Shown piece by piece: positions 1,775 to 46,482 of a stretch of 64,000 nucleotides of DNA. The DNA is taken from assembly GCF_056746865.1 (NCBI RefSeq), contig NZ_CM163382.1; one strand, written 5' to 3'. The stretch's first letter is position 1. Each line of letters opens with the position of its first letter. The notes beneath the pieces are model-generated. The model ran no database searches and was not told the origin of the DNA. It saw only the letters and a list, made by a program, of their open reading frames with translations. A program made the translations under genes and the position numbers.

Positions 1775-1783
1775 AACGGAATA
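1775..1783. repeat. Target-site duplication AACGGAATA, left copy, flanking IS1
   Basis: Identical 9-mer directly abuts both IS1 ends (1775-1783 and 2552-2560). Confidence 0.85.
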
Positions 1784-1798
1784 GGTAATGACTCCAAC

Positions 1799-2302
1799 TT
1801 ATTGATAGTGTTTTATGTTCAGATAATGCCCGATGACTTTGTCATGCAGCTCCACCGATTTTGAGAACGACAGCGACTTCCGTCCCAGCCGTGCCAGGTG
1901 CTGCCTCAGATTCAGGTTATGCCGCTCAATTCGCTGCGTATATCGCTTGCTGATTACGTGCAGCTTTCCCTTCAGGCGGGATTCATACAGCGGCCAGCCA
2001 TCCGTCATCCATATCACCACGTCAAAGGGTGACAGCAGGCTCATAAGACGCCCCAGCGTCGCCATAGTGCGTTCACCGAATACGTGCGCAACAACCGTCT
2101 TCCGGAGCCTGTCATACGCGTAAAACAGCCAGCGCTGGCGCGATTTAGCCCCGACGTATCCCCACTGTTCGTCCATTTCCGCGCAGACGATGACGTCACT
2201 GCCCGGCTGTATGCGCGAGGTTACCGACTGCGGCCTGAGTTTTTTAAATGGCGGAAAATCGTGTTGAGGCCAACGCCCATAATGCGGGCGGTTGCCCGGC
2301 AT
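1799..2302 (-). CDS. insB: IS1 InsB (transposase ORF, expressed as InsAB' fusion by -1 frameshift)
   Basis: 167-aa ORF ...[54 protein letters not shown]... recognised as IS1 InsB. Confidence 0.93.
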
Positions 2303-2496
2303 CCAACGCCATTCATGGCCATATCAATGATTTTCTGGTGCGTACCGGGTTGAGAAGCGGTGTAAGTGAACTGCAGTTGCCATGTTTTACGGCAGTGAGA
2401 GCAGAGATAGCGCTGATGTCCGGCAGTGCTTTTGCCGTTACGCACCACCCCGTCAGTAGCTGAACAGGAGGGACAGCTGATAGAAACAGAAGCCAC
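2221..2496 (-). CDS. insA: IS1 InsA (DNA-binding inhibitor of transposition)
   Basis: 91-aa [45 protein letters not shown]...; start codon reads GTG in this copy. Confidence 0.93.
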
Positions 2497-2551
2497 TGGA
2501 GCACCTCAAAAACACCATCATACACTAAATCAGTAAGTTGGCAGCATCACC

Positions 2552-2560
2552 AACGGAATA
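2552..2560. repeat. Target-site duplication AACGGAATA, right copy
   Basis: See left copy. Confidence 0.85.
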
Positions 2561-2824: not shown

Positions 2825-4192
2825 ATGTTCGGCATAATTATATCTGTCATCGTATTAATTACGATGGGCTATTTGATCCTGAAAAACTACAAACCTCAGG
2901 TGGTGCTGGCTGCCGCAGGTATCTTCCTGATGATGTGCGGTGTCTGGTTAGGGTTCGGTGGTGTGCTCGATCCCGCCAAAAGCAGCGGCTACTTGATCGT
3001 CGATATTTATAATGAAATCCTGCGCATGCTGTCCAACCGCATTGCTGGATTGGGGCTGTCGATTATGGCAGTGGGCGGTTATGCCCGCTATATGGAGCGC
3101 ATAGGGGCAAGTCGCGCGATGGTGAGCTTGTTAAGCCGCCCGTTAAAACTCATTCGCTCGCCGTATATTATTCTGTCGGCAACTTACGTCATCGGCCAAA
3201 TCATGGCGCAGTTTATTACCAGCGCCTCCGGTCTGGGTATGTTGCTGATGGTCACCTTATTTCCGACGCTGGTGAGTCTGGGAGTAAGTCGTCTCTCTGC
3301 GGTGGCGGTTATCGCAACCACCATGTCCATTGAGTGGGGGATTCTGGAAACGAACTCCATTTTTGCTGCCCAGGTCGCAGGAATGAAAATTGCCACTTAC
3401 TTCTTCCACTACCAGCTTCCGGTCGCCTCTTGCGTCATTATCTCGGTGGCGATCTCCCACTTTTTCGTGCAACGCGCTTTCGACAAAAAAGATAAAAATA
3501 TCAATCACGAACAGGCAGAGCAAAAAGCTCTCGATAATGTCCCGCCGCTCTATTACGCCATTTTACCGGTGATGCCGTTAATCCTGATGCTCGGCTCGCT
3601 GTTCCTTGCCCACGTCGGGCTGATGCAGTCAGAACTGCATCTGGTGGTGGTGATGTTACTGAGTTTGACGGTGACGATGTTTGTTGAGTTCTTCCGCAAG
3701 CATAACTTGCGCGAAACAATGGATGATGTGCAGGCGTTTTTTGACGGCATGGGTACGCAGTTTGCCAACGTGGTAACGCTGGTGGTCGCGGGTGAAATAT
3801 TTGCGAAAGGCTTAACGACGATTGGCACTGTCGATGCGGTTATCAGGGGTGCGGAGCATTCTGGTCTGGGCGGTATTGGCGTGATGATTATTATGGCGCT
3901 GGTCATTGCCATTTGTGCCATTGTGATGGGCTCAGGCAATGCGCCGTTTATGTCATTTGCCAGTCTTATTCCGAATATCGCAGCCGGACTACATGTGCCA
4001 GCGGTTGTAATGATTATGCCGATGCATTTTGCCACGACGCTAGCGCGCGCTGTTTCGCCGATTACTGCGGTGGTGGTCGTTACGTCAGGAATTGCAGGCG
4101 TTTCGCCTTTTGCGGTAGTGAAGCGGACAGCGATCCCCATGGCAGTCGGTTTCGTGGTGAATATGATTGCCACAATCACGCTATTTTATTAA
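2825..4192 (+). CDS. dcuD: DcuD, C4-dicarboxylate transporter family (DcuC paralog)
   Basis: Protein begins [34 protein letters not shown]...; the track ORF at 2807 carries a short upstream extension, ATG at 2825 chosen. Confidence 0.92.
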
Positions 4193-4204
4193 GTCATTAA
4201 AAAG

Positions 4205-4233
4205 ACAAAACAGGCCGCCAGGGCCTGTTTTAG
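4205..4233. terminator. Bidirectional intrinsic terminator between convergent dcuD and sspB
   Basis: AAAACAGGCCGCCAGGGCCTGTTTT: GC stem flanked by A-run and T-run. Confidence 0.7.
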
Positions 4234-4235
4234 TA

Positions 4236-4733
4236 TTACTTCACAACGCGTAATGCTGGTCGACCACCACGTGGTGGCTGCGGTGGTTCATCGTCAGGAT
4301 GAGTGTCATCATCGTGATCTGGCTTGTCGCCATCAATAACCGACATAACGGTTTCGTTGTCTGCCGATGCCTCTTCATCATTCATGATGCTGGCATCTTC
4401 ATCGTAGGCAGCTTCAGGTTCAAACATCGTGCCTGCGCCATTTTCACGGGCGTAGATAGCCAGCACGGCAGCCAGCGGCACAGAAACCTGACGCGGAATG
4501 CCACCAAAGCGCGCGTTAAAGCGCACCTCATCATTCGCCAGTTCCAGATTGCCGACAGCACGCGGCGCAATGTTGAGTACGATTTGCCCGTCACGCGCAT
4601 ATTCCATAGGAACCTGCACGCCAGGGAGCGTCACATCCACCACCAGGTGCGGCGTGAGCTGGTTATCCAGCAACCACTCATAGAATGCACGCAGCAGATA
4701 GGGACGACGTGGTGTTAGCTGTGACAAATCCAT
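4236..4733 (-). CDS. sspB: SspB, ClpXP specificity-enhancing adaptor
   Basis: 165-aa ORF MDLSQLTPRRPYLLRAFYEWLLDNQLTPHLVVDVTLPGVQVP... with acidic tail ending ...RPALRVVK. Confidence 0.95.
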   Translation of the reverse strand: MDLSQLTPRRPYLLRAFYEWLLDNQLTPHLVVDVTLPGVQVPMEYARDGQIVLNIAPRAVGNLELANDEVRFNARFGGIPRQVSVPLAAVLAIYARENGAGTMFEPEAAYDEDASIMNDEEASADNETVMSVIDGDKPDHDDDTHPDDEPPQPPRGGRPALRVVK

Positions 4734-4738
4734 ACAGA

Positions 4739-5377
4739 TTAACTCCGGCCCAGACGCATTTCACGTTCAGCTTCAGTTAAAGAAGCAAGGAAAGAGTCAC
4801 GCTCAAAGACGCGGGTCATATAGCCTTTCAGCTCTTTCGCACCCGGGCCGCTGAACTCGATACCCAGTTGCGGCAGACGCCACAGCAGCGGAGCAAGGTA
4901 GCAATCGACCAGGCTGAACTCATCGCTCAGGAAGTACGGCTTCTGACCGAAGACCGGCGCAATCGCCAGCAGTTCTTCGCGCAGTTGCTTACGTGCGGCA
5001 TCTGCTTCAGAAGCTGAACCGTTGATGATGGTGTTCATCAGCGTGTACCAGTCTTTTTCGATGCGATGCATGTACAGACGGCTTTCACCGCGAGCTACCG
5101 GGTAAACAGGCATCAGTGGCGGATGCGGGAAACGCTCATCCAGATATTCCATAATGATGCGAGATTCCCACAGGGTCAGCTCACGATCCACCAGGGTCGG
5201 AACGCTCTGATTCGGGTTGAGGTCAATCAGATCCTGAGGCGGATTGTCCTTTTCCACGTGTTCGATCTCGAAACTTACACCTTTCTCAGCCAGCACAATG
5301 CGGACCTGATGGCTATAGATGTCAGTAGGACCGGAAAACAGCGTCATTACCGAACGTTTGTTGGCAGCGACAGCCAT
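4739..5377 (-). CDS. sspA: SspA, stringent starvation protein A (GST-like)
   Basis: 212-aa ORF MAVAANKRSVMTLFSGPTDIYSHQVRIVLAEKGVSFEIEHV... Confidence 0.95.
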   Translation of the reverse strand: MAVAANKRSVMTLFSGPTDIYSHQVRIVLAEKGVSFEIEHVEKDNPPQDLIDLNPNQSVPTLVDRELTLWESRIIMEYLDERFPHPPLMPVYPVARGESRLYMHRIEKDWYTLMNTIINGSASEADAARKQLREELLAIAPVFGQKPYFLSDEFSLVDCYLAPLLWRLPQLGIEFSGPGAKELKGYMTRVFERDSFLASLTEAEREMRLGRS

Positions 5378-12656: not shown

Positions 12657-13130
<474 letters not shown>

Positions 13131-13494
13131 TCTCTGCCCCGTCGCTTCTGGCGGCGGGGAAAATGTTGCTTATCCCTCTCAACCCCCTGCTTTCCTCTGC
13201 GATTAATTTAACGAATAGTGCGTTTTACTGCGACATGTCATTCACACAATGAATACATACGGTAAAAAAAGCACATTATGCAAAATTCATTATCTAATTG
13301 AAAACAATAGAATTAATAATAAATAACCGTGTTTTTAATTCTTTTTTGTTATTAAAACTCACATTTTTAACACTTAGTATCAACTGAAACAGTTAGCGTG
13401 GTATTAATTAGTTCAATAATTAGTGTATACTTGATTTTGTGATATGGGTCACGAAACAAAGGCCCAGCTAAAAGATTATGTCGAGGTAAAAATC

Positions 13495-13758
13495 ATGAAA
13501 ATCAAAACCACTGTTGCTGCATTAAGCGTACTTTCTGTTCTATCTTTCGGTGCATTCGCTGCCGACTCCATTGATGCTGCACAAGCACAAAATCGTGAAG
13601 CAATCGGGACCGTATCCGTAAGTGGTGTGGCGTCTTCGCCAATGGATATGCGTGAAATGCTGAACAAAAAAGCAGAAGAGAAAGGCGCAACGGCCTACCA
13701 GATTACGGAAGCTCGTAGCGGTGACACCTGGCACGCTACGGCTGAACTGTACAAATAA
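13495..13758 (+). CDS. yhcN: YhcN, DUF1471-family periplasmic stress protein
   Basis: 87-aa product MKIKTTVAALSVLSVLSFGAFAADSID... with signal peptide; the track ORF is extended 5'. Confidence 0.9.
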   Translation: MKIKTTVAALSVLSVLSFGAFAADSIDAAQAQNREAIGTVSVSGVASSPMDMREMLNKKAEEKGATAYQITEARSGDTWHATAELYK

Positions 13759-32084: not shown

Positions 32085-32915
32085 TTGAAATCATTATTCA
32101 ATCGGTTAACGGGAAAAGCGGTTAGCCGGACAGCTTTCGTCGAACATCTTGGTCATGAAGTTGTACAACATCATCCAAACTGGAAAGTCATGATTTCGAC
32201 TGACCACAAATTGATGCGCATTGATACGGGTCACCAAACTGTGGAAATCACCCTTGATGATGCTTACAAACGTTATCAAGCCGCACCAGACCCGCTGGAA
32301 GAAGTGGCTGCAGATATGCTGAAACAGCTTGCAGAAATGCTGCCGACCGGGCGCTGTATTGTCCCGGTGATTAAAGAAAAAGCCTGGCTGGATACCGTTC
32401 GCCAACAGCTTAGCCAGTATGAGTCTGATCCAGAGGTCCTCAACGCCTCGCTTGATTTTGCCTGGGAAGACTTTAACGATGAGTTAATTATCCTGTTTGC
32501 TGAAGACGGTAGCGAAACCATGCGCTATCTGATGCGCTGCGAAGTGACCATTGACCGCGAACAAGCCATCAGTAATTTGAAGCAAATATTGCCGGAAGTT
32601 ACGGCTGAAATCGTTGATACAGGCGCAAACGATGGAAAAGTTGCCGTTATCTCCGCAGGGGGTACTTATGAGCCCAGTCTGATGCTCATTGACGATCTTT
32701 GGGTGCAATCACCCGATCCTGAATGCGGCGACCTGTTAGTGACCGTTCCCTCCAGAGGAAAACTGTTTTTCACCCACAATGATCAGCCAGCAAATCTCAG
32801 CGCATTACGACAGTTAACAGAACAATGCTTCCGTGAGGATGACCATCCTCTGACAACACAGATATTCATCCGCCGTAACGGTCACTTTTATCCCTGGGTA
32901 GAAACCTTGCATTAA
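32085..32915 (+). CDS. Hypothetical protein, 276 aa, function unknown
   Basis: TTG start with GAGGG 8 nt upstream, 831-nt open frame, own intrinsic terminator downstream, host-like composition. No catalytic or nucleotide-binding motif recognised. Confidence 0.65.
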   Translation: MKSLFNRLTGKAVSRTAFVEHLGHEVVQHHPNWKVMISTDHKLMRIDTGHQTVEITLDDAYKRYQAAPDPLEEVAADMLKQLAEMLPTGRCIVPVIKEKAWLDTVRQQLSQYESDPEVLNASLDFAWEDFNDELIILFAEDGSETMRYLMRCEVTIDREQAISNLKQILPEVTAEIVDTGANDGKVAVISAGGTYEPSLMLIDDLWVQSPDPECGDLLVTVPSRGKLFFTHNDQPANLSALRQLTEQCFREDDHPLTTQIFIRRNGHFYPWVETLH

Positions 32916-32978
32916 CGCAACCTCCGTCATGCTTGAAAAAGCTTGTCGGAGTATGTGATGAATGCTGCAAACTCACCG

Positions 32979-33011
32979 AAGCCGATTTTGCTACTAAATC
33001 GGCTTTTTTAT
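32979..33011 (+). terminator. Intrinsic terminator after the unassigned ORF
   Basis: AAGCCGATTTTGCTACTAAATCGGCTT followed by TTTTTATT. Confidence 0.7.
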
Positions 33012-33475
33012 TGTCACGCGGCAAATTCTGAATGCATCACATAGCCGCACTGCCGCCTGACAAAACAGTTTACCTTCTGCAAAATGGGGGGAATAATCTG
33101 ATTTTATTTGATTACAAATTAACCACTTAAACCTATTTCATGCAGAGCATTGTCAGGCGGTTGATTTTGCGTGCTTTAGCATTCACGTTTATCCAGACGA
33201 TGAAGTGAAAATTGCGTAATCCTCAGCAACCGCTGCGTAATGTCGTCTATCTTGTCGCGATCCTGGCATCCCTACATTATTTGTGGTCTGTGAAGATTAT
33301 CTCATTGCAGCCCCTCATCTTCGCAGGGCTGGCTTTACAGCTTTTAGCCTTACGTTATAAGAAGTTCCGTCGATGATGGCGCTAATTTCGTGAATTGTGC
33401 GGCTTGTTGCAAATTACACGGTGTTGAAGGTTATTTACATGTTAGCTGTTGATTATCTTCCCTGATAAGACCAGT

Positions 33476-39997: not shown

Positions 39998-40882
39998 ATG
40001 AGAACAGGATGTGAACCGACCCGATTTGGTAATGAAGCAAAGACCATCATCCAGGGTGATGCATTAACCGAACTTAAAAAGCTCCCCGCCGAAAGTGTCG
40101 ATCTGATCTTTGCCGACCCACCGTATAACATCGGTAAAAATTTTGATGGTCTGATCGAAGCCTGGAAAGAAGATCTGTTTATCGACTGGCTGTTTGAAGT
40201 GATTGCAGAGTGCCATCGCGTTCTGAAAAAGCAGGGCAGCATGTACATCATGAATAGCACGGAAAACATGCCCTTTATCGATCTCCAGTGCCGCAAGCTT
40301 TTTACCATCAAAAGTCGCATCGTCTGGTCATATGACAGTTCTGGAGTGCAGGCGAAAAAACACTACGGCTCCATGTACGAACCCATCCTGATGATGGTGA
40401 AAGACGCAAAGAACTACACATTCAACGGTGATGCTATTCTGGTAGAAGCCAAAACCGGATCGCAGCGCGCGTTGATCGATTATCGCAAAAACCCTCCACA
40501 GCCTTACAATCATCAAAAAGTACCGGGTAACGTCTGGGATTTTCCGCGCGTGCGTTATTTGATGGATGAATATGAAAACCACCCGACGCAAAAACCGGAA
40601 GCCTTACTGAAACGCATTATTCTCGGCTCTTCCAACCCAGGCGATATCGTTCTCGACCCGTTTGCTGGTAGCTTTACTACCGGTGCCGTAGCCGTCGCCA
40701 GTGGGCGAAAATTCATTGGTATTGAGATCAACAGCGAGTACATCAAAATGGGGCTTCGACGGCTGGATGTCGCGTCGCATTACTCTGCGGAAGAACTGGC
40801 GAAAGTGAAAAAAAGAAAGACCGGCAACCTGTCAAAACGAAGCAGGTTAAGCGAAGTTGACCCCGATCTCATTGCAAAGTAA
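39998..40882 (+). CDS. yhdJ: YhdJ, DNA adenine (N6) methyltransferase
   Basis: 294-aa product MRTGCEPTRFGNEAKTIIQGDALTELKKLPAESVDLIFADPPYNIGKNFDG... with DPPY motif; the track ORF has 2 extra codons. Confidence 0.9.
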   Translation: MRTGCEPTRFGNEAKTIIQGDALTELKKLPAESVDLIFADPPYNIGKNFDGLIEAWKEDLFIDWLFEVIAECHRVLKKQGSMYIMNSTENMPFIDLQCRKLFTIKSRIVWSYDSSGVQAKKHYGSMYEPILMMVKDAKNYTFNGDAILVEAKTGSQRALIDYRKNPPQPYNHQKVPGNVWDFPRVRYLMDEYENHPTQKPEALLKRIILGSSNPGDIVLDPFAGSFTTGAVAVASGRKFIGIEINSEYIKMGLRRLDVASHYSAEELAKVKKRKTGNLSKRSRLSEVDPDLIAK

Positions 40883-40965
40883 AGGAAGTGTAAGCCTGGT
40901 TTTCAGATTATTCATTTCGTGTATATTTCCTGCCAGACTTGGTTAAACATGCACAGGCTCAGGTA

Positions 40966-41145
40966 ATGATTCGCAAGTATTGGTGGCTCGTCGTTTTCGC
41001 TGTCTTCGTTTTTCTGTTTGATACTTTACTGATGCAGTGGATTGAACTGCTCGCAACAGAAACAGACAAATGCCGCAATATGAACTCAGTTAATCCACTA
41101 AAACTGGTTAACTGTGACGAACTGAATTTTCAGGACAGAATGTGA
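40966..41145 (+). CDS. yhdU: YhdU small membrane protein
   Basis: 59-aa product MIRKYWWLVVFAVFVFLFDTLLMQWIELLATE... Confidence 0.8.
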   Translation: MIRKYWWLVVFAVFVFLFDTLLMQWIELLATETDKCRNMNSVNPLKLVNCDELNFQDRM

Positions 41146-41147
41146 AT

Positions 41148-41810
41148 TTATATGACACTTAATTCATTCGTTTTATGAATTAATTTCGTTATGTTTTCAT
41201 CTGGCATGAACATTCTTAATACGTTATCGACCAGTGCGGGTGCTTGTTTATAAAGATCATAACCCGCCATATTCATTAACCAGTTTTGAACAATTCCGCT
41301 GAAGGCACCATCAATAATAATCATCACAACATCTAAATCGAGATTATTTGCTATACAACCTTGTTGCAGACATGCCTGCAATACTTCGCGGAGAGTCTGC
41401 GGATTAAAACCCATCTTTTCGCGTATCACTCCCTCTGCCAGCATCTCATCATTAAATTCACATTTGTGATATAAGATTTTCAGCAACGCCTGCTGGCGGG
41501 GAATTTTGGCAATATATTGCAAGCCAACAATCAATTTTTCACGCAATTGCTGAAACGGGTCATGCTCTAACCCAGCAGTCAAGTGATCCTGGATTAACTC
41601 CCGCAATGAAGGCTGTTGCAACCACATCTCATTAAACAGTTGGGTCTTGTTCTCGAAGTGCCAGTAGATAGCGCCACGCGTAACGTTAGCGGCGTCGGCA
41701 ATGTCGTTGAGCGTCGTCTTGCTTACGCCACGCTGCGCAAACTGGGCGATGGCAGTTTCAATCAGTTCTTGCCGGGTCTTCAGGGCTTCAGCTTTGGTTC
41801 TTTTTGCCAT
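41148..41810 (-). CDS. envR: EnvR (AcrS), TetR-family repressor
   Basis: 220-aa ORF MAKRTKAEALKTRQELIETAIAQFAQRGVSKTTLNDIADAANVTRGAIYWHF...; divergent from acrEF. Confidence 0.93.
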   Translation of the reverse strand: MAKRTKAEALKTRQELIETAIAQFAQRGVSKTTLNDIADAANVTRGAIYWHFENKTQLFNEMWLQQPSLRELIQDHLTAGLEHDPFQQLREKLIVGLQYIAKIPRQQALLKILYHKCEFNDEMLAEGVIREKMGFNPQTLREVLQACLQQGCIANNLDLDVVMIIIDGAFSGIVQNWLMNMAGYDLYKQAPALVDNVLRMFMPDENITKLIHKTNELSVI

Positions 41811-42208
41811 GATTAATTATTCAGGAAATAAATATATTCGACACAGGATGAGAAAATAGCGAAGGTTAATCTATCACCTAATGTATATTTATACGAGAGG
41901 CTAATATTGAGTTGCTATAAATCGTCAAATAAATAACGTTTATTATTTACCTAAAATACATTCACTCTATCAATATATATTTCAATTTACGAGGATTTGA
42001 TTCTACCTCTTTCAACCCGCGTCAAAATAAAACAGTAGAATATTAATCTTTTTTTGTGTTTATGTGCCTTGAGACGCCAGTATTCATAACTATTCCTTAC
42101 ATCGACGAATGATAATTTGTAGGATAGCGAACTGTATTTTTCTTTCTGCGAGTTAACGCGTTGCCTTTTTGGGTAAATAACGCGCTTTTGGTTTTTTGAG
42201 GAATAGTA

Positions 42209-43366
42209 ATGACGAAACATGCCAGGTTTTTCCTCCTGCCCTCCTTTATTCTGATCTCCGCGGCTTTAATCGCCGGTTGTAACGATAAGGGAGAAGAGAA
42301 AGCTCACGTCGGTGAACCGCAGGTTACCGTTCATATTGTGAAAACGGCCCCGTTAGAAGTTAAGACTGAATTACCAGGCCGCACCAATGCTTACCGTATA
42401 GCCGAAGTTCGCCCACAGGTTAGCGGGATCGTACTGAATCGCAATTTCACTGAAGGCAGCGATGTGCAAGCAGGCCAGTCCCTGTACCAGATCGATCCCG
42501 CGACCTATCAGGCAAGTTATGACAGCGCGAAAGGCGAACTGGCGAAAAGTGAAGCCGCCGCCGCCATCGCGCATTTGACGGTAAAACGTTACGTTCCGCT
42601 CGTGGGTACGAAATACATCAGTCAGCAGGAGTACGACCAGGCCATTGCTGATGCTCGCCAGGCCGATGCCGCCGTGATTGCCGCAAAAGCCACGGTCGAA
42701 AGCGCTCGCATCAATCTCGCTTATACCAAAGTGACTGCGCCAATTAGCGGACGTATCGGCAAATCGACCGTGACCGAAGGCGCTCTTGTCACTAATGGGC
42801 AAACGACTGAACTGGCGACTGTCCAGCAGCTCGATCCTATCTACGTTGATGTGACCCAATCCAGCAACGATTTTATGAGGCTGAAGCAATCCGTAGAGCA
42901 AGGAAATTTGCATAAGGAAAACGCCACCAGCAACGTAGAGTTGGTCATGGAAAACGGTCAAACCTATCCCCTGAAAGGTACGCTGCAATTCTCTGATGTG
43001 ACCGTTGATGAAAGCACCGGCTCCATAACCCTACGTGCTGTCTTCCCTAACCCGCAACATACGCTTTTGCCGGGTATGTTTGTGCGTGCACGGATTGATG
43101 AAGGCGTCCAACCTGACGCCATTCTTATCCCGCAACAAGGCGTTAGCCGCACACCGCGTGGTGATGCAACCGTGCTGATTGTTAACGATAAAAGCCAGGT
43201 TGAAGCGCGCCCTGTCGTTGCCAGTCAGGCGATTGGCGATAAATGGTTGATTAGCGAAGGTCTGAAATCTGGCGATCAAGTCATTGTCAGCGGCCTGCAA
43301 AAAGCGCGTCCGGGAGAGCAGGTTAAAGCCACTACCGATACCCCCGCAGATTCTGCATCGAAGTAA
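42209..43366 (+). CDS. acrE: AcrE, RND efflux membrane-fusion lipoprotein
   Basis: 385-aa ORF with lipobox LIAGC. Confidence 0.95.
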
Positions 43367-43377
43367 GGCAATCTGAC

Positions 43378-46300
43378 ATGGCAAACTTTTTTATTCGACG
43401 ACCGATATTTGCATGGGTGCTGGCCATTATTCTGATGATGGCGGGCGCACTGGCGATCCTACAATTGCCCGTCGCCCAATACCCAACCATTGCACCGCCT
43501 GCGGTTTCTGTTTCAGCAAACTATCCGGGCGCTGATGCGCAGACCGTGCAGGATACGGTGACGCAGGTTATCGAACAGAATATGAACGGTATCGATAACC
43601 TGATGTATATGTCCTCCACCAGCGATTCCGCCGGTAGCGTGACAATTACCCTTACCTTCCAGTCCGGGACCGATCCTGATATCGCGCAAGTGCAGGTGCA
43701 GAACAAACTCCAGCTCGCCACGCCGTTGCTGCCGCAGGAAGTACAGCAGCAGGGGATCAGTGTTGAAAAGTCCAGTAGCAGCTATTTGATGGTGGCGGGC
43801 TTTGTCTCTGATAACCCAGACACCACACAGGACGATATCTCGGACTATGTGGCCTCTAACGTTAAAGATACGCTTAGCCGTCTGAATGGCGTCGGTGACG
43901 TACAGCTTTTCGGCGCACAGTATGCGATGCGTATCTGGTTGGACGCCGATCTGCTAAACAAATATAAACTGACGCCTGTTGATGTGATTAACCAGTTGAA
44001 GGTACAGAACGATCAGATCGCTGCCGGACAGTTGGGCGGAACGCCAGCGTTACCAGGGCAACAGTTGAACGCCTCGATTATTGCTCAGACGCGGTTAAAA
44101 AATCCGGAAGAATTCGGCAAAGTGACCTTGCGCGTAAACAGTGACGGCTCGGTGGTACGCCTGAAAGATGTCGCACGGGTTGAACTTGGCGGTGAAAACT
44201 ATAACGTTATCGCTCGCATCAACGGTAAACCGGCGGCGGGCCTGGGGATTAAGCTGGCAACCGGCGCGAATGCTCTCGATACCGCGAAAGCCATTAAGGC
44301 AAAACTGGCGGAATTACAGCCATTCTTCCCGCAGGGAATGAAGGTTCTCTACCCTTATGACACCACGCCATTCGTCCAGCTTTCTATTCACGAAGTGGTA
44401 AAAACGCTGTTCGAAGCTATTATGCTGGTGTTCCTGGTGATGTATCTGTTCTTGCAGAATATGCGAGCAACGCTGATCCCCACCATTGCGGTACCCGTGG
44501 TGTTGTTAGGGACGTTTGCCATCCTCGCCGCTTTTGGTTACTCCATCAACACACTAACGATGTTCGGGATGGTGCTTGCCATCGGGCTGCTCGTCGATGA
44601 TGCGATAGTGGTGGTGGAGAACGTCGAGCGCGTGATGATGGAGGATAAGCTCCCGCCAAAAGAAGCGACGGAAAAATCAATGTCGCAAATCCAGGGCGCA
44701 CTGGTGGGTATCGCAATGGTGCTGTCAGCGGTATTTATTCCGATGGCATTCTTCGGCGGTTCTACTGGGGCAATTTATCGCCAGTTCTCTATCACCATCG
44801 TTTCGGCAATGGCGCTTTCTGTTCTGGTGGCATTGATTCTTACCCCAGCGTTATGTGCAACACTGCTCAAACCCGTCTCTGCTGAGCATCACGAAAATAA
44901 GGGCGGTTTCTTCGGCTGGTTTAATACCACCTTCGATCATAGCGTTAACCACTACACCAACAGCGTCGGCAAAATACTCGGTTCCACAGGACGATATTTA
45001 CTGATCTATGCACTAATTGTTGCTGGAATGGTGGTGTTGTTTTTACGTCTTCCGTCTTCCTTCTTACCTGAAGAGGATCAGGGTGTCTTTCTGACTATGA
45101 TTCAGTTACCCGCTGGCGCGACGCAAGAGCGAACGCAAAAAGTGTTGGATCAAGTGACGGATTACTATCTGAAGAACGAGAAAGCGAACGTAGAAAGTGT
45201 CTTTACGGTTAACGGCTTTAGCTTCAGCGGCCAGGCACAAAACGCCGGTATGGCTTTCGTCAGTCTGAAACCGTGGGAAGAGCGTAGTGGTGACGAAAAC
45301 AGTGCGGAAGCGGTAATCCATCGTGCCAAAATGGAATTGGGCAAGATCCGCGACGGTTTTGTCATTCCATTCAATATGCCAGCCATTGTTGAACTGGGCA
45401 CGGCAACGGGTTTCGACTTTGAGTTAATTGATCAGGCTGGGCTGGGTCATGATGCCCTGACCCAGGCCCGTAACCAGTTGCTTGGCATGGCGGCGCAACA
45501 TCCTGCCAGCTTAGTCAGCGTGCGTCCTAATGGTCTGGAAGACACCGCGCAGTTTAAACTGGAAGTTGACCAGGAAAAGGCGCAGGCATTAGGTGTTTCA
45601 CTTTCTGACATCAATCAGACCATTTCAACGGCGTTAGGTGGGACTTACGTTAACGACTTCATTGACCGTGGTCGCGTGAAAAAGGTGTATGTTCAGGCGG
45701 ATGCCAAATTCCGTATGCTGCCAGAAGATGTCGATAAACTTTATGTCCGCAGCGCCAACGGCGAAATGGTGCCATTCTCGGCCTTTACCACTGCACATTG
45801 GGTGTATGGCTCTCCGCGACTGGAGCGCTACAACGGTCTGCCGTCAATGGAGATTCAGGGGGAAGCCGCGCCAGGAACCAGTTCCGGCGATGCCATGGCG
45901 TTGATGGAAAACCTTGCATCACAATTACCAGCTGGCATTGGTTATGACTGGACGGGTATGTCATATCAGGAACGCTTATCGGGAAACCAGGCTCCCGCTC
46001 TGGTAGCAATTTCCTTTGTGGTTGTTTTCCTGTGCCTTGCTGCACTCTATGAAAGCTGGTCAATTCCTGTCTCGGTTATGTTGGTCGTGCCGTTAGGGAT
46101 TGTCGGCGTGCTACTGGCGGCGACACTCTTTAATCAAAAAAATGACGTCTACTTTATGGTGGGCTTGCTAACGACAATTGGCTTGTCGGCTAAAAACGCT
46201 ATTTTGATTGTTGAGTTCGCTAAAGATCTCATGGAGAAAGAGGGTAAAGGTGTTGTTGAAGCGACACTAATGGCAGTACGTATGCGTCTGCGTCCTATCC

Positions 46301-46482
46301 TGATGACCTCTCTCGCCTTTATTCTCGGCGTATTACCGCTAGCTATCAGTAACGGTGCCGGCAGTGGCGCGCAGAACGCAGTGGGTATCGGAGTAATGGG
46401 CGGGATGGTTTCTGCAACGTTGCTGGCAATCTTCTTCGTGCCGGTGTTCTTTGTGGTGATCCGCCGTTGCTTTAAAGGATAA
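43378..46482 (+). CDS. acrF: AcrF, RND multidrug efflux transporter
   Basis: 1034-aa [44 protein letters not shown]... Confidence 0.95.

What the first reader, a model, noticed from the sequence alone, without database searches (positions are those of the whole stretch)
41811..42208. Long AT-rich divergent control region of the normally silent envR/acrEF efflux locus
The 398-bp envR-acrE spacer is strongly AT-rich with multiple A/T tracts, typical of H-NS-silenced promoters. acrEF is known to be cryptic unless activated, classically by IS insertion upstream. An active IS1 is present elsewhere in this window, so this strain has the mobile element that could activate it, but the acrEF upstream region itself is uninterrupted here.
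Basis: established knowledge. Interest (0 to 1): 0.15.

Follow-up and report, generated by a model that had tools for sequence, protein, structure and literature searches.

The report
Intact, silent acrEF efflux control region
This is the ordinary, uninterrupted, very AT-rich DNA between the repressor gene envR and the normally silent drug-efflux operon acrEF of E. coli. It carries none of the insertions or point changes known to switch that pump on.

Summary
41811-42208 is the 398-bp spacer between envR (41148-41810, minus strand) and acrE (42209-43366), followed by acrF. At 31.2% GC it is the lowest-GC 398-bp stretch of the 64-kb window.

Against K-12 MG1655 it has the same length, no indels and 15 substitutions. 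All 15 lie in the envR-proximal two thirds; the 129 bp next to acrE are identical. None of the published acrEF-activating changes is present: IS1, IS2 or IS5 insertions at -86 to -187, or the SNPs at -86 and -92.

The window does hold an intact IS1 (1784-2551). It has a 9-bp target duplication and is absent from the otherwise identical strain 118UI.

Literature supports H-NS binding in this spacer and H-NS repression of acrEF in K-12. Neither was tested for this strain.

Added here:
- The spacer is bipartite. One half is hypervariable but always AT-rich; the other is a 180-bp block conserved across four genera.
- The conserved block holds a weak core promoter, inferred as CTTACA-18-TAGGAT, exactly where the activating mutations map.
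- A few natural E. coli genomes carry IS1 in this spacer.

Verdict: canonical, wild-type, already known; low interest.

The parts
41148..41810 (-). envR (acrS), TetR-family repressor, 220 aa, intact
   Evidence: ORF. NCBIfam NF007430 equivalog at 433.8 bits over model positions 1-219 of 220. Six amino-acid differences from K-12 EnvR.
41811..42208 (.). envR-acrE divergent control spacer, 398 bp, 31.2% GC, uninterrupted
   Evidence: 96.2% identical to K-12 with no indels. Present in 5,230 of 5,426 complete E. coli genomes.
41811..42028 (.). envR-proximal half: hypervariable but always AT-rich
   Evidence: Within E. coli, 4,539 of 5,227 genomes are only 90-95% identical to the window, down to 91.2%. 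It is poorly alignable across genera, although GC stays at 30-35% and total spacer length at 376-413 bp. It holds 13 of the 15 differences from K-12; the other two are at 42075 and 42079.
41907..41937 (+). Position of the acrEF promoter predicted by Shimada 2014 (TTGAGT-19-AATAAT in K-12); here the -10 reads AATAAC
   Evidence: PMC3946193 table, mapped. It lies in the non-conserved half. It is a prediction only and is not supported by the mutation map.
41953..41982 (.). Conserved island resembling the AcrR/EnvR operator of acrAB: ATACATTCAC, then 6 nt, then AATATATATT. Candidate EnvR operator and envR promoter region.
   Evidence: It shares an exact 10-mer with the K-12 acrAB operator TACATACATTCACAAATGTATGTA; 2.4% of shuffles reach this. 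It is the only conserved block in the variable half. It overlaps the predicted envR -10 TATATT. The half-site spacing differs from the acrAB operator by 5 bp.
42029..42208 (+). acrE-proximal conserved block (promoter plus leader)
   Evidence: All but one of 5,229 E. coli genomes are at least 95% identical, and the lowest listed full-length match is 97.2%. Long invariant runs persist across Escherichia, Citrobacter, Salmonella and Pseudocitrobacter.
42096..42101 (+). Inferred -35 element CTTACA (4 of 6 matches to consensus)
   Evidence: Lies inside CTTACAT, which is invariant in 15 sequences from four genera. Sits 18 nt upstream of TAGGAT. Inference.
42120..42125 (+). Inferred -10 element TAGGAT (4 of 6 matches), wild-type here
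   Evidence: Lies in the invariant block ATAATTTGTAGGATAG. The laboratory-evolution SNP G>A at -86 (window 42123) would make it TAGAAT. IS2 insertions duplicate GTAGG (42119-42123) and so leave TAGGAT next to acrE (PMC9783932). IS2 activation of acrEF is listed as a fusion promoter (PMC9330008).
42161..42176 (+). Small leader hairpin UUGCC / GGUAA
   Evidence: It is the only helix with real covariation: one pair shows AU:8, GC:4, GU:3.
42198..42211 (+). Shine-Dalgarno GAGGA and the acrE start codon ATG
   Evidence: Sequence; AGGAA and ATG are invariant in the orthologues.
42209..46482 (+). acrE-acrF operon, both genes full length
   Evidence: ORFs. RND adaptor and permease family matches. AcrE has 2 and AcrF 6 amino-acid differences from K-12.
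1784..2551 (-). Intact IS1 in the nanR-dcuC spacer, flanked by the 9-bp duplication AACGGAATA (1775-1783 and 2552-2560)

Best explanation
The region is the native, wild-type divergent regulatory spacer of envR and the acrEF multidrug-efflux operon, in its silent state. It has two parts.

The envR-proximal ~220 bp is extremely AT-rich and evolves fast, but keeps its length and AT content across genera. This fits DNA whose job is to be bound and coated by the nucleoid protein H-NS, which needs composition rather than a specific sequence. It also contains one conserved island that resembles the AcrR/EnvR operator and probably holds the envR promoter and operator.

The acrE-proximal ~180 bp is strongly conserved. 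It carries a weak sigma-70 core promoter, inferred as CTTACA-18-TAGGAT with transcription starting near 42132, followed by a ~77-nt leader and a good ribosome-binding site.

Low acrEF expression then results from a poor core promoter sitting inside an H-NS-bound AT-rich tract. The known escape routes are IS insertions between -86 and -187, which bring in or create promoters and cut the core promoter off from the AT-rich tract, and promoter-up point changes at the -10 element. None of these is present here, so acrEF is expected to be silent in this strain.

Shown: coordinates, composition, identity to K-12, absence of insertions and of the activating alleles, the conservation pattern, and the IS1 structure.
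From literature on K-12: H-NS binding and repression, and the IS and SNP activation sites.
Inferred: the exact -35, -10 and transcription start, the EnvR operator, and silence in this particular strain.
For: - Coordinates and gene identities.
- Lowest GC of the window.
- 398 bp, 15 substitutions and 0 indels against K-12, with the last 129 bp identical.
- H-NS site and sigma-70 holoenzyme binding in this spacer by genomic SELEX: PMC3946193.
- hns deletion raises acrEF expression: cited in PMC4462101 and PMC6599122.
- Activating events in K-12 delta-acrB evolution (PMC9783932): IS1 at -138, IS2 at -86/-90 duplicating GTAGG, IS5 at -94 and -163, SNPs at -92 and -86. The GTAGG pentamer maps exactly to window 42119-42123, which is -90 to -86, and this validates the coordinate conversion.
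- All these positions are wild type in the window.
- Bipartite conservation within E. coli.
- Bipartite conservation across 14 other species of four genera, with spacer length 376-413 bp and GC 30-35% throughout.
- No near-consensus sigma-70 promoter on either strand. The scan found 0 sites against 1.4 expected, and the best candidates score only 8 of 12.
Against: - H-NS binding and acrEF expression were not measured for this strain; no expression data are available here.
- The window has no match to the H-NS high-affinity motif TCGWTWAATT with one mismatch or fewer. The K-12 site TCGTTAAATA is TCGTCAAATA here.
- The core promoter assignment is only 8 of 12 to consensus, and no mapped transcription start was found in the accessible literature.
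- The T>G change at -92 is not obviously explained by this promoter model.
- Shimada's prediction places the acrEF promoter about 190 bp further upstream.
- In one natural isolate (XJ55) IS1 sits downstream of the inferred -10 element. This shows only that IS-driven expression does not need the native promoter.
Confidence: 0.85

Rival explanations
1. The acrE leader forms an RNA structure that hides the ribosome-binding site, so silencing is largely translational. Bases 42084-42098 would pair with the Shine-Dalgarno sequence and start codon at 42198-42212.
For: The inverted repeat is 14 nt with 13 complementary positions; repeats this good occur in 1 of 100 shuffles. The fold of 42075-42235 has a free energy of -41.3 kcal/mol and z = -2.56, and the helix is kept in the centroid structure. 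Both arms are identical in K-12.
Against: There is no covariation support. Outside Escherichia, 5 of the 15 pairs are broken without compensation, and a freely varying position faces an invariant G of the Shine-Dalgarno sequence. The consensus fold drops this helix. The 5' arm lies upstream of the inferred transcription start and of the IS2 insertion site, so it would be absent from native and IS2-driven transcripts. The leader from the inferred start folds no better than shuffled sequence, z = 0.09.
Confidence: 0.07
2. The AT-rich spacer marks horizontally acquired (xenogeneic) DNA, and H-NS silences it for that reason.
For: AT-rich DNA well below the genome average is the usual H-NS target. 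This is the lowest-GC stretch of the window.
Against: Only the spacer is AT-rich. The acrE and acrF coding sequence has ordinary GC of about 0.48-0.58. The same gene order, spacer length (376-413 bp) and GC (30-35%) are found in Escherichia clades, E. albertii, Citrobacter, Salmonella and Pseudocitrobacter. The locus is therefore ancestral core DNA. It is present in 5,230 of 5,426 E. coli genomes.
Confidence: 0.03
3. Local repression by EnvR, rather than H-NS, keeps acrEF off, through the operator-like island in the spacer.
For: The island at 41953-41982 shares an exact 10-mer with the acrAB operator that EnvR binds, and it is conserved across genera. TetR-family regulators commonly control the divergent neighbouring operon.
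Against: [quoted passage not shown] The island lies about 230-255 bp upstream of the acrE start and about 140 bp upstream of the inferred acrE promoter, so it is better placed to control envR itself. The half-site spacing differs from the proven operator by 5 bp.
Confidence: 0.05

Closest known systems
envR(acrS)-acrEF intergenic region of E. coli K-12 MG1655 (NC_000913.3 3413466-3413863)
   Same: Same flanking genes and orientation and the same 398-bp length. 96.2% identity with no indels. The last 129 bp before acrE are identical. All published activation sites are wild type.
   Different: There are 15 substitutions, all in spacer columns 37-269. They include the last base of a predicted (unvalidated) -10 element, AATAAT to AATAAC, and one base of a near-consensus H-NS motif, TCGTTAAATA to TCGTCAAATA. 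The window's allele of the variable half is a minority type: 391 of 5,227 genomes are at least 99% identical.
IS-activated acrEF alleles (Kobayashi 2001; Jellen-Ritter and Kern 2001; Olliver 2005; PMC9783932)
   Same: Same locus and the same target DNA. The window strain carries IS1, one of the activating elements.
   Different: There is no insertion here. In the evolved or selected mutants, IS1, IS2, IS5 or IS10 sit 86-187 bp upstream of acrE. Among natural genomes, strain AR436 carries IS1 within 1 bp of the laboratory -138 site.
acrR-acrAB divergent control region
   Same: A paralogous pump with a divergent TetR-family repressor. The operator core ATACATTCAC is shared.
   Different: The acrAB spacer is 141 bp and its promoter is active. 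It carries a perfect 24-bp palindrome. The envR-acrE spacer is 398 bp, far more AT-rich and silent, and its two half-sites are 5 bp further apart.
Other H-NS-marked AT-rich spacers in the same window (argR-yhcN, aaeX-aaeR)
   Same: argR-yhcN (window about 13126-13630) is another of the three lowest-GC stretches. Both argR-yhcN and aaeX-aaeR are flagged 'HNS' in the same SELEX tables.
   Different: They control unrelated genes and have no history of IS activation.

Membership tests
E. coli envR-acrEF divergent control region | Flanked by a divergent envR (TetR-family) gene and the acrE-acrF operon | tested here: met
E. coli envR-acrEF divergent control region | Sequence homology and collinearity with the K-12 spacer | tested here: met
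   96.2% identity over 398 of 398 bp with no indels. 100% identical to strain 118UI.
H-NS-silenced promoter region | AT content far above that of the surrounding genome, with A/T tracts | tested here: met
   GC 0.312 against 0.507; lowest of all 398-bp stretches in the window.
H-NS-silenced promoter region | Physical H-NS binding to the region | not testable with these tools
   Reported for K-12 by genomic SELEX (PMC3946193). Not measured for this strain.
H-NS-silenced promoter region | Derepression when hns is deleted | not testable with these tools
   Reported for E. coli (Nishino and Yamaguchi 2004), as cited in PMC4462101 and PMC6599122. The Salmonella report (Nishino et al. 2009) appears only as a reference title in PMC9780535. 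The primary papers are not held.
H-NS-silenced promoter region | High-affinity H-NS nucleation motif tCG(t/a)T(a/t)AATT | tested here: inconclusive
   No match with one mismatch or fewer inside the spacer. The motif is not enriched in the window: 20 found against 16 expected. K-12 has a 9-of-10 match where the window has 8 of 10. The motif is recalled from memory (Lang et al. 2007).
IS-activated acrEF allele | An insertion sequence between envR and acrE, typically 86-187 bp upstream of acrE | tested here: not met
   The spacer is 398 bp and collinear with K-12. The only IS1 end in the window is at 2529-2551.
Promoter-up acrEF allele | SNP G>A at -86 or T>G at -92 | tested here: not met
   Window 42123 is G and 42117 is T, as in K-12.
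TetR-type autoregulated divergent operator | A palindromic operator like the 24-bp AcrR/EnvR site | tested here: inconclusive
   An exact 10-mer is shared and is conserved across genera, but the best match to the full 24-mer is only 14 of 24 and the half-site spacing is 5 bp longer.
RBS-sequestering leader RNA | The helix pairing with the Shine-Dalgarno sequence and start codon is maintained by compensatory changes | tested here: not met
   5 of 15 pairs are broken outside Escherichia, and only one pair shows any two-sided change, in a single sequence.
Known RNA families (Rfam 15) | A covariance-model match in 40800-42400 | tested here: not met
   No match at an E-value of 1 or below.

The most novel reading that the evidence does not exclude
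The 180-bp acrE-proximal block is nearly invariant across Escherichia, Salmonella, Citrobacter and Pseudocitrobacter. It includes the imperfect inverted repeat CTTACA-N17-TGTAGG, which frames the weak core promoter, and a covarying leader hairpin. This block could be the docking site of a still-unidentified activator or anti-silencer. If so, acrEF is a conditionally expressed operon whose natural inducing signal is unknown, rather than a cryptic one. The uniform orientation of natural IS1 insertions in the spacer would then reflect selection for read-out into acrEF.
Probability: 0.25. Interest if true: 0.4.

Novelty: already known. Interest (0 to 1): 0.1.

Why it matters
For this window it matters little. 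It records that a well-known silent efflux operon is in its normal, unactivated configuration in a strain that carries a mobile IS1.

It has practical value for resistance genomics. The exact positions to watch are now mapped onto the sequence: IS insertions between 42022 and 42123, and the -10 element TAGGAT at 42120-42125. A survey of 5,426 complete genomes shows that IS1 insertions in this spacer occur in nature but are rare. One is within 1 bp of a site selected in laboratory evolution.

The strong cross-genus conservation of the promoter-proximal block argues that acrEF is maintained under selection rather than decaying.

Tried and rejected
- Rfam scan of 40800-42400 at permissive threshold: nothing.
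- RBS-sequestering leader helix. It looked promising in the single sequence, but failed the covariation test and lies upstream of the inferred transcription start.
- Consensus promoter scan: no site at 9 of 12 or better on either strand. A relaxed scan gives many 8-of-12 candidates, so sequence alone cannot pick the promoter.
- H-NS high-affinity motif search: uninformative.
- Shimada's predicted promoters. They map to the non-conserved half and are altered in this strain, and nothing else supports them.
- Primary papers (Kobayashi 2001, Jellen-Ritter and Kern 2001, Olliver 2005, Nishino 2009) are not held in the library. Their content is cited only through papers that quote them, or marked as memory.
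- A literature search for a mapped acrE or envR transcription start found nothing.
- An apparent natural replacement of about 135 bp of the promoter block by unrelated sequence in strain 4114 (net 35 bp shorter) is an assembly artefact. It contains Nextera-adapter-like sequence, identified from memory of the adapter.
- A resemblance of the two repeat arms to EvgA half-sites (TTCYTACA, from memory) was considered. It was not pursued because the spacing (17 nt against 2) does not fit.

Full report
**What is there.** The window is E. coli chromosome. It is collinear with, and almost identical to, the urinary isolate 118UI (NZ_CP032515.1): 100% identity over 35.3 kb (33,487 + 1,783 bp) and 99.94% over the remaining 28 kb. 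The ORF list gives envR at 41148..41810 on the minus strand (220 aa), acrE at 42209..43366 (385 aa) and acrF at 43378..46482 (1034 aa). EnvR passes the NCBIfam equivalog for the acrEF/envCD operon regulator (433.8 bits against a cut-off of 274). AcrE and AcrF match the RND adaptor and permease families. RefSeq names them acrS, acrE and acrF in the identical strain and envR, acrE and acrF in K-12.

**Is it more than chance?** Spacer GC is 0.312 against 0.507 for the window. The lowest-GC 398-bp stretch of the whole 64 kb starts at 41812, and only 0.02% of such stretches are as low. The spacer has 18 runs of six or more A/T bases. Only two other places in the window come close, and one of them, argR-yhcN, is also flagged as an H-NS-binding spacer in K-12.

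Both spacers are 398 bp. There are 15 substitutions and no indels. All 15 lie in spacer columns 37-269, and the 129 bp next to acrE are identical. Divergence is 3.8% in the spacer, 3.0% in envR, 1.2% in acrE and 2.0% in acrF, so the spacer is not an outlier for this locus. EnvR, AcrE and AcrF are full length, with 6, 2 and 6 amino-acid differences from K-12.

**Known biology, from papers.**
- Genomic SELEX in K-12 lists the envR<>acrE spacer as bound by sigma-70 holoenzyme and as containing an H-NS site (PMC3946193).
- Deletion of hns raises acrEF expression, and acrEF is barely expressed in wild-type K-12 (PMC4462101; PMC6599122).
- EnvR is described as mainly a repressor of acrAB rather than of acrEF (PMC9780535).
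- IS1 and IS2 in E. coli, and IS1 and IS10 in Salmonella, activate acrEF when inserted upstream.
- A laboratory-evolution study of K-12 delta-acrB gives positions. IS1 is at -138. IS2 is at -86/-90 and duplicates GTAGG. IS5 is at -94 and -163. There are SNPs T>G at -92 and G>A at -86. The same paper quotes earlier IS insertions at about -90 and -187 (PMC9783932).

**Mapping these onto the window.** With the A of the start codon at 42209, position -90 to -86 is 42119-42123. That stretch reads GTAGG, the very pentamer the paper says is duplicated, so the conversion is right. All the listed positions are wild type here. The G>A change at 42123 would turn TAGGAT (42120-42125) into TAGAAT. IS2 insertions at GTAGG keep TAGGAT on the acrE side, and IS2 activation of acrEF is classed as a fusion promoter. 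Together with CTTACA 18 nt upstream, this points to a weak core promoter, CTTACA-18-TAGGAT, scoring 8 of 12 to consensus. Transcription would start near 42132 and give a leader of about 77 nt. This is an inference. No mapped start was found, and a simple scan finds no site at 9 of 12 or better on either strand.

**Comparative evidence.** A protein-guided scan of one genome per species returned 16 envR orthologue loci; 14 held both gene starts and were used. They come from Escherichia clades, E. whittamii, E. albertii, Citrobacter, Salmonella arizonae and diarizonae, and Pseudocitrobacter. In all of them the spacer is 376-413 bp with 30-35% GC. The alignment is sharply bipartite:
- The envR-proximal ~270 columns barely align, apart from one island.
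- The acrE-proximal ~180 bp has long invariant runs. These include ATAA.TATT.CTTACAT, ATAATTTGTAGGATAG, the Shine-Dalgarno sequence and the start codon.

The same contrast holds inside E. coli. For 42029-42208, all but one of 5,229 genomes are at least 95% identical. For 41811-42028, 4,539 of 5,227 are only 90-95% identical, and only 391 share the window's allele at 99% or more. Conserved length and AT content without conserved sequence is what one expects of DNA that works by composition, as an H-NS platform. The conserved block is the promoter and leader. Because the whole arrangement is shared by four genera and the flanking genes have ordinary GC, the AT-richness is ancestral regulatory DNA and not a foreign island.

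**The one conserved island in the variable half.** Bases 41953-41982 read ATACATTCAC, then 6 nt, then AATATATATT. The 10-mer ATACATTCAC is identical to part of the acrAB operator TACATACATTCACAAATGTATGTA taken from K-12; 2.4% of shuffles reach this. It overlaps the predicted envR -10 element. I read it as a candidate EnvR autoregulatory operator. However, the half-site spacing is 5 bp longer than in the proven site, so membership is left open.

**A lead that failed.** A 14-nt inverted repeat, 42084-42097 against 42199-42212, pairs with the ribosome-binding site and start codon. Repeats this good occur in 1 of 100 shuffles, and the local fold has z = -2.56. Across the orthologues, however, 5 of its 15 pairs are broken without compensation, and the consensus fold drops it. 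Its 5' arm also lies upstream of the inferred transcription start. Only a small hairpin, 42161-42176, shows covariation (AU:8, GC:4, GU:3). Rfam finds nothing.

**The IS1.** A 768-bp IS1 sits at 1784-2551 in the nanR-dcuC spacer. It has both inverted repeats, the insA and insB' frames, the AAAAAAC frameshift site and a 9-bp duplication AACGGAATA. Strain 118UI lacks it at this site while being identical on both sides. The insertion is therefore recent, which supports, but does not prove, that the element is active.

**Natural insertions elsewhere.** A chimeric query (spacer with IS1 placed at -138) was run against 5,426 complete genomes, and the IS1 insertions it pulled out were then mapped:
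- AR436 and AR_0374 have IS1 with target duplication 42072-42080, within 1 bp of the laboratory -138 site.
- XJ55 has it at 42146-42154.
- RM9088 has it between the two half-sites of the operator-like island.
- AVS0247 has it at the acrE start codon.
- 510016, and by its matching hit pattern STEC346 (not fetched), have IS1 abutting 42100 with envR deleted.
- 035152, and from their hit pattern a group of others (not fetched), have IS1 after spacer column 61 with acrEF deleted.

All insertions inside the spacer share one IS1 orientation. The opposite-orientation hits lie in envR, yhdU or acrE. The window has none of these.

**Verdict.** The observation and its interpretation are correct. This is a canonical, wild-type, already well-described control region, so interest is low. 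What this analysis adds is a base-level map of where the known activating events fall, evidence for a bipartite architecture with a conserved weak promoter, and a small census of natural IS1 insertions.

Noticed in passing
window 1775-2560: An intact IS1 lies in the nanR-dcuC intergenic region with the 9-bp target duplication AACGGAATA. Strain 118UI lacks it at this site and is otherwise 100% identical on both sides, so the insertion is recent. It may affect nanR or dcuC expression.
   Followed up: partly
L088 (AR436), L091 (XJ55), L094 (AVS0247), L097 (RM9088), L098 (510016); window equivalents 42072-42080, 42146-42154, 42210-42218, 41962-41970, 42100: Natural E. coli genomes carry IS1 inside the envR-acrE spacer, one within 1 bp of a site selected in laboratory evolution. 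All have the same IS1 orientation, with the insA end towards acrE. Whether these insertions raise acrEF expression is untested.
   Followed up: partly
L005 (strain 035152) 4001-4830, and hits H125-H135: IS1 lies after spacer column 61, with acrE, acrF, yhdV and the start of yhdW deleted. Several genomes show the same hit pattern (envR plus IS1, with the substrate-binding-protein gene annotated under the match, at near-identical coordinates). They were not fetched, but this suggests a lineage that has lost acrEF.
   Followed up: partly
L087 (strain 4114, NZ_CP071328.1) 3400-3500: About 100 bp of unrelated sequence replaces the acrE promoter block. It contains GTCTCGTGGGC.CGGAGATGTGTATA, which resembles a Nextera sequencing adapter (from memory). 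It is probably an assembly artefact in a public 'complete' genome.
   Followed up: partly
window 42096-42101 and 42119-42124: The imperfect inverted repeat CTTACA-N17-TGTAGG is invariant in 15 sequences from four genera. Each arm resembles an EvgA half-site (TTCYTACA, from memory), but the spacing is wrong for a canonical EvgA box.
   Followed up: no
window 42161-42176: A small hairpin in the acrE leader (UUGCC/GGUAA; UUACCG/CGGUAA in Salmonella and Citrobacter) shows genuine covariation. Its function is unknown.
   Followed up: partly
window 41811-42028: The envR-proximal half of the spacer differs by up to about 9% between E. coli genomes. The window's allele is shared at 99% or more by only 391 of 5,227 genomes. 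This is unusually deep within-species divergence next to a block that varies by less than 3%.
   Followed up: partly
hit tables: One of the matches to the envR-acrE spacer lies on a record classed as a plasmid. It was not identified.
   Followed up: no
window about 32085-33376 (from the 118UI annotation, L003): Between acuI and accB there is a gene for a hypothetical protein and a truncated yedZ-like pseudogene.
   Followed up: no
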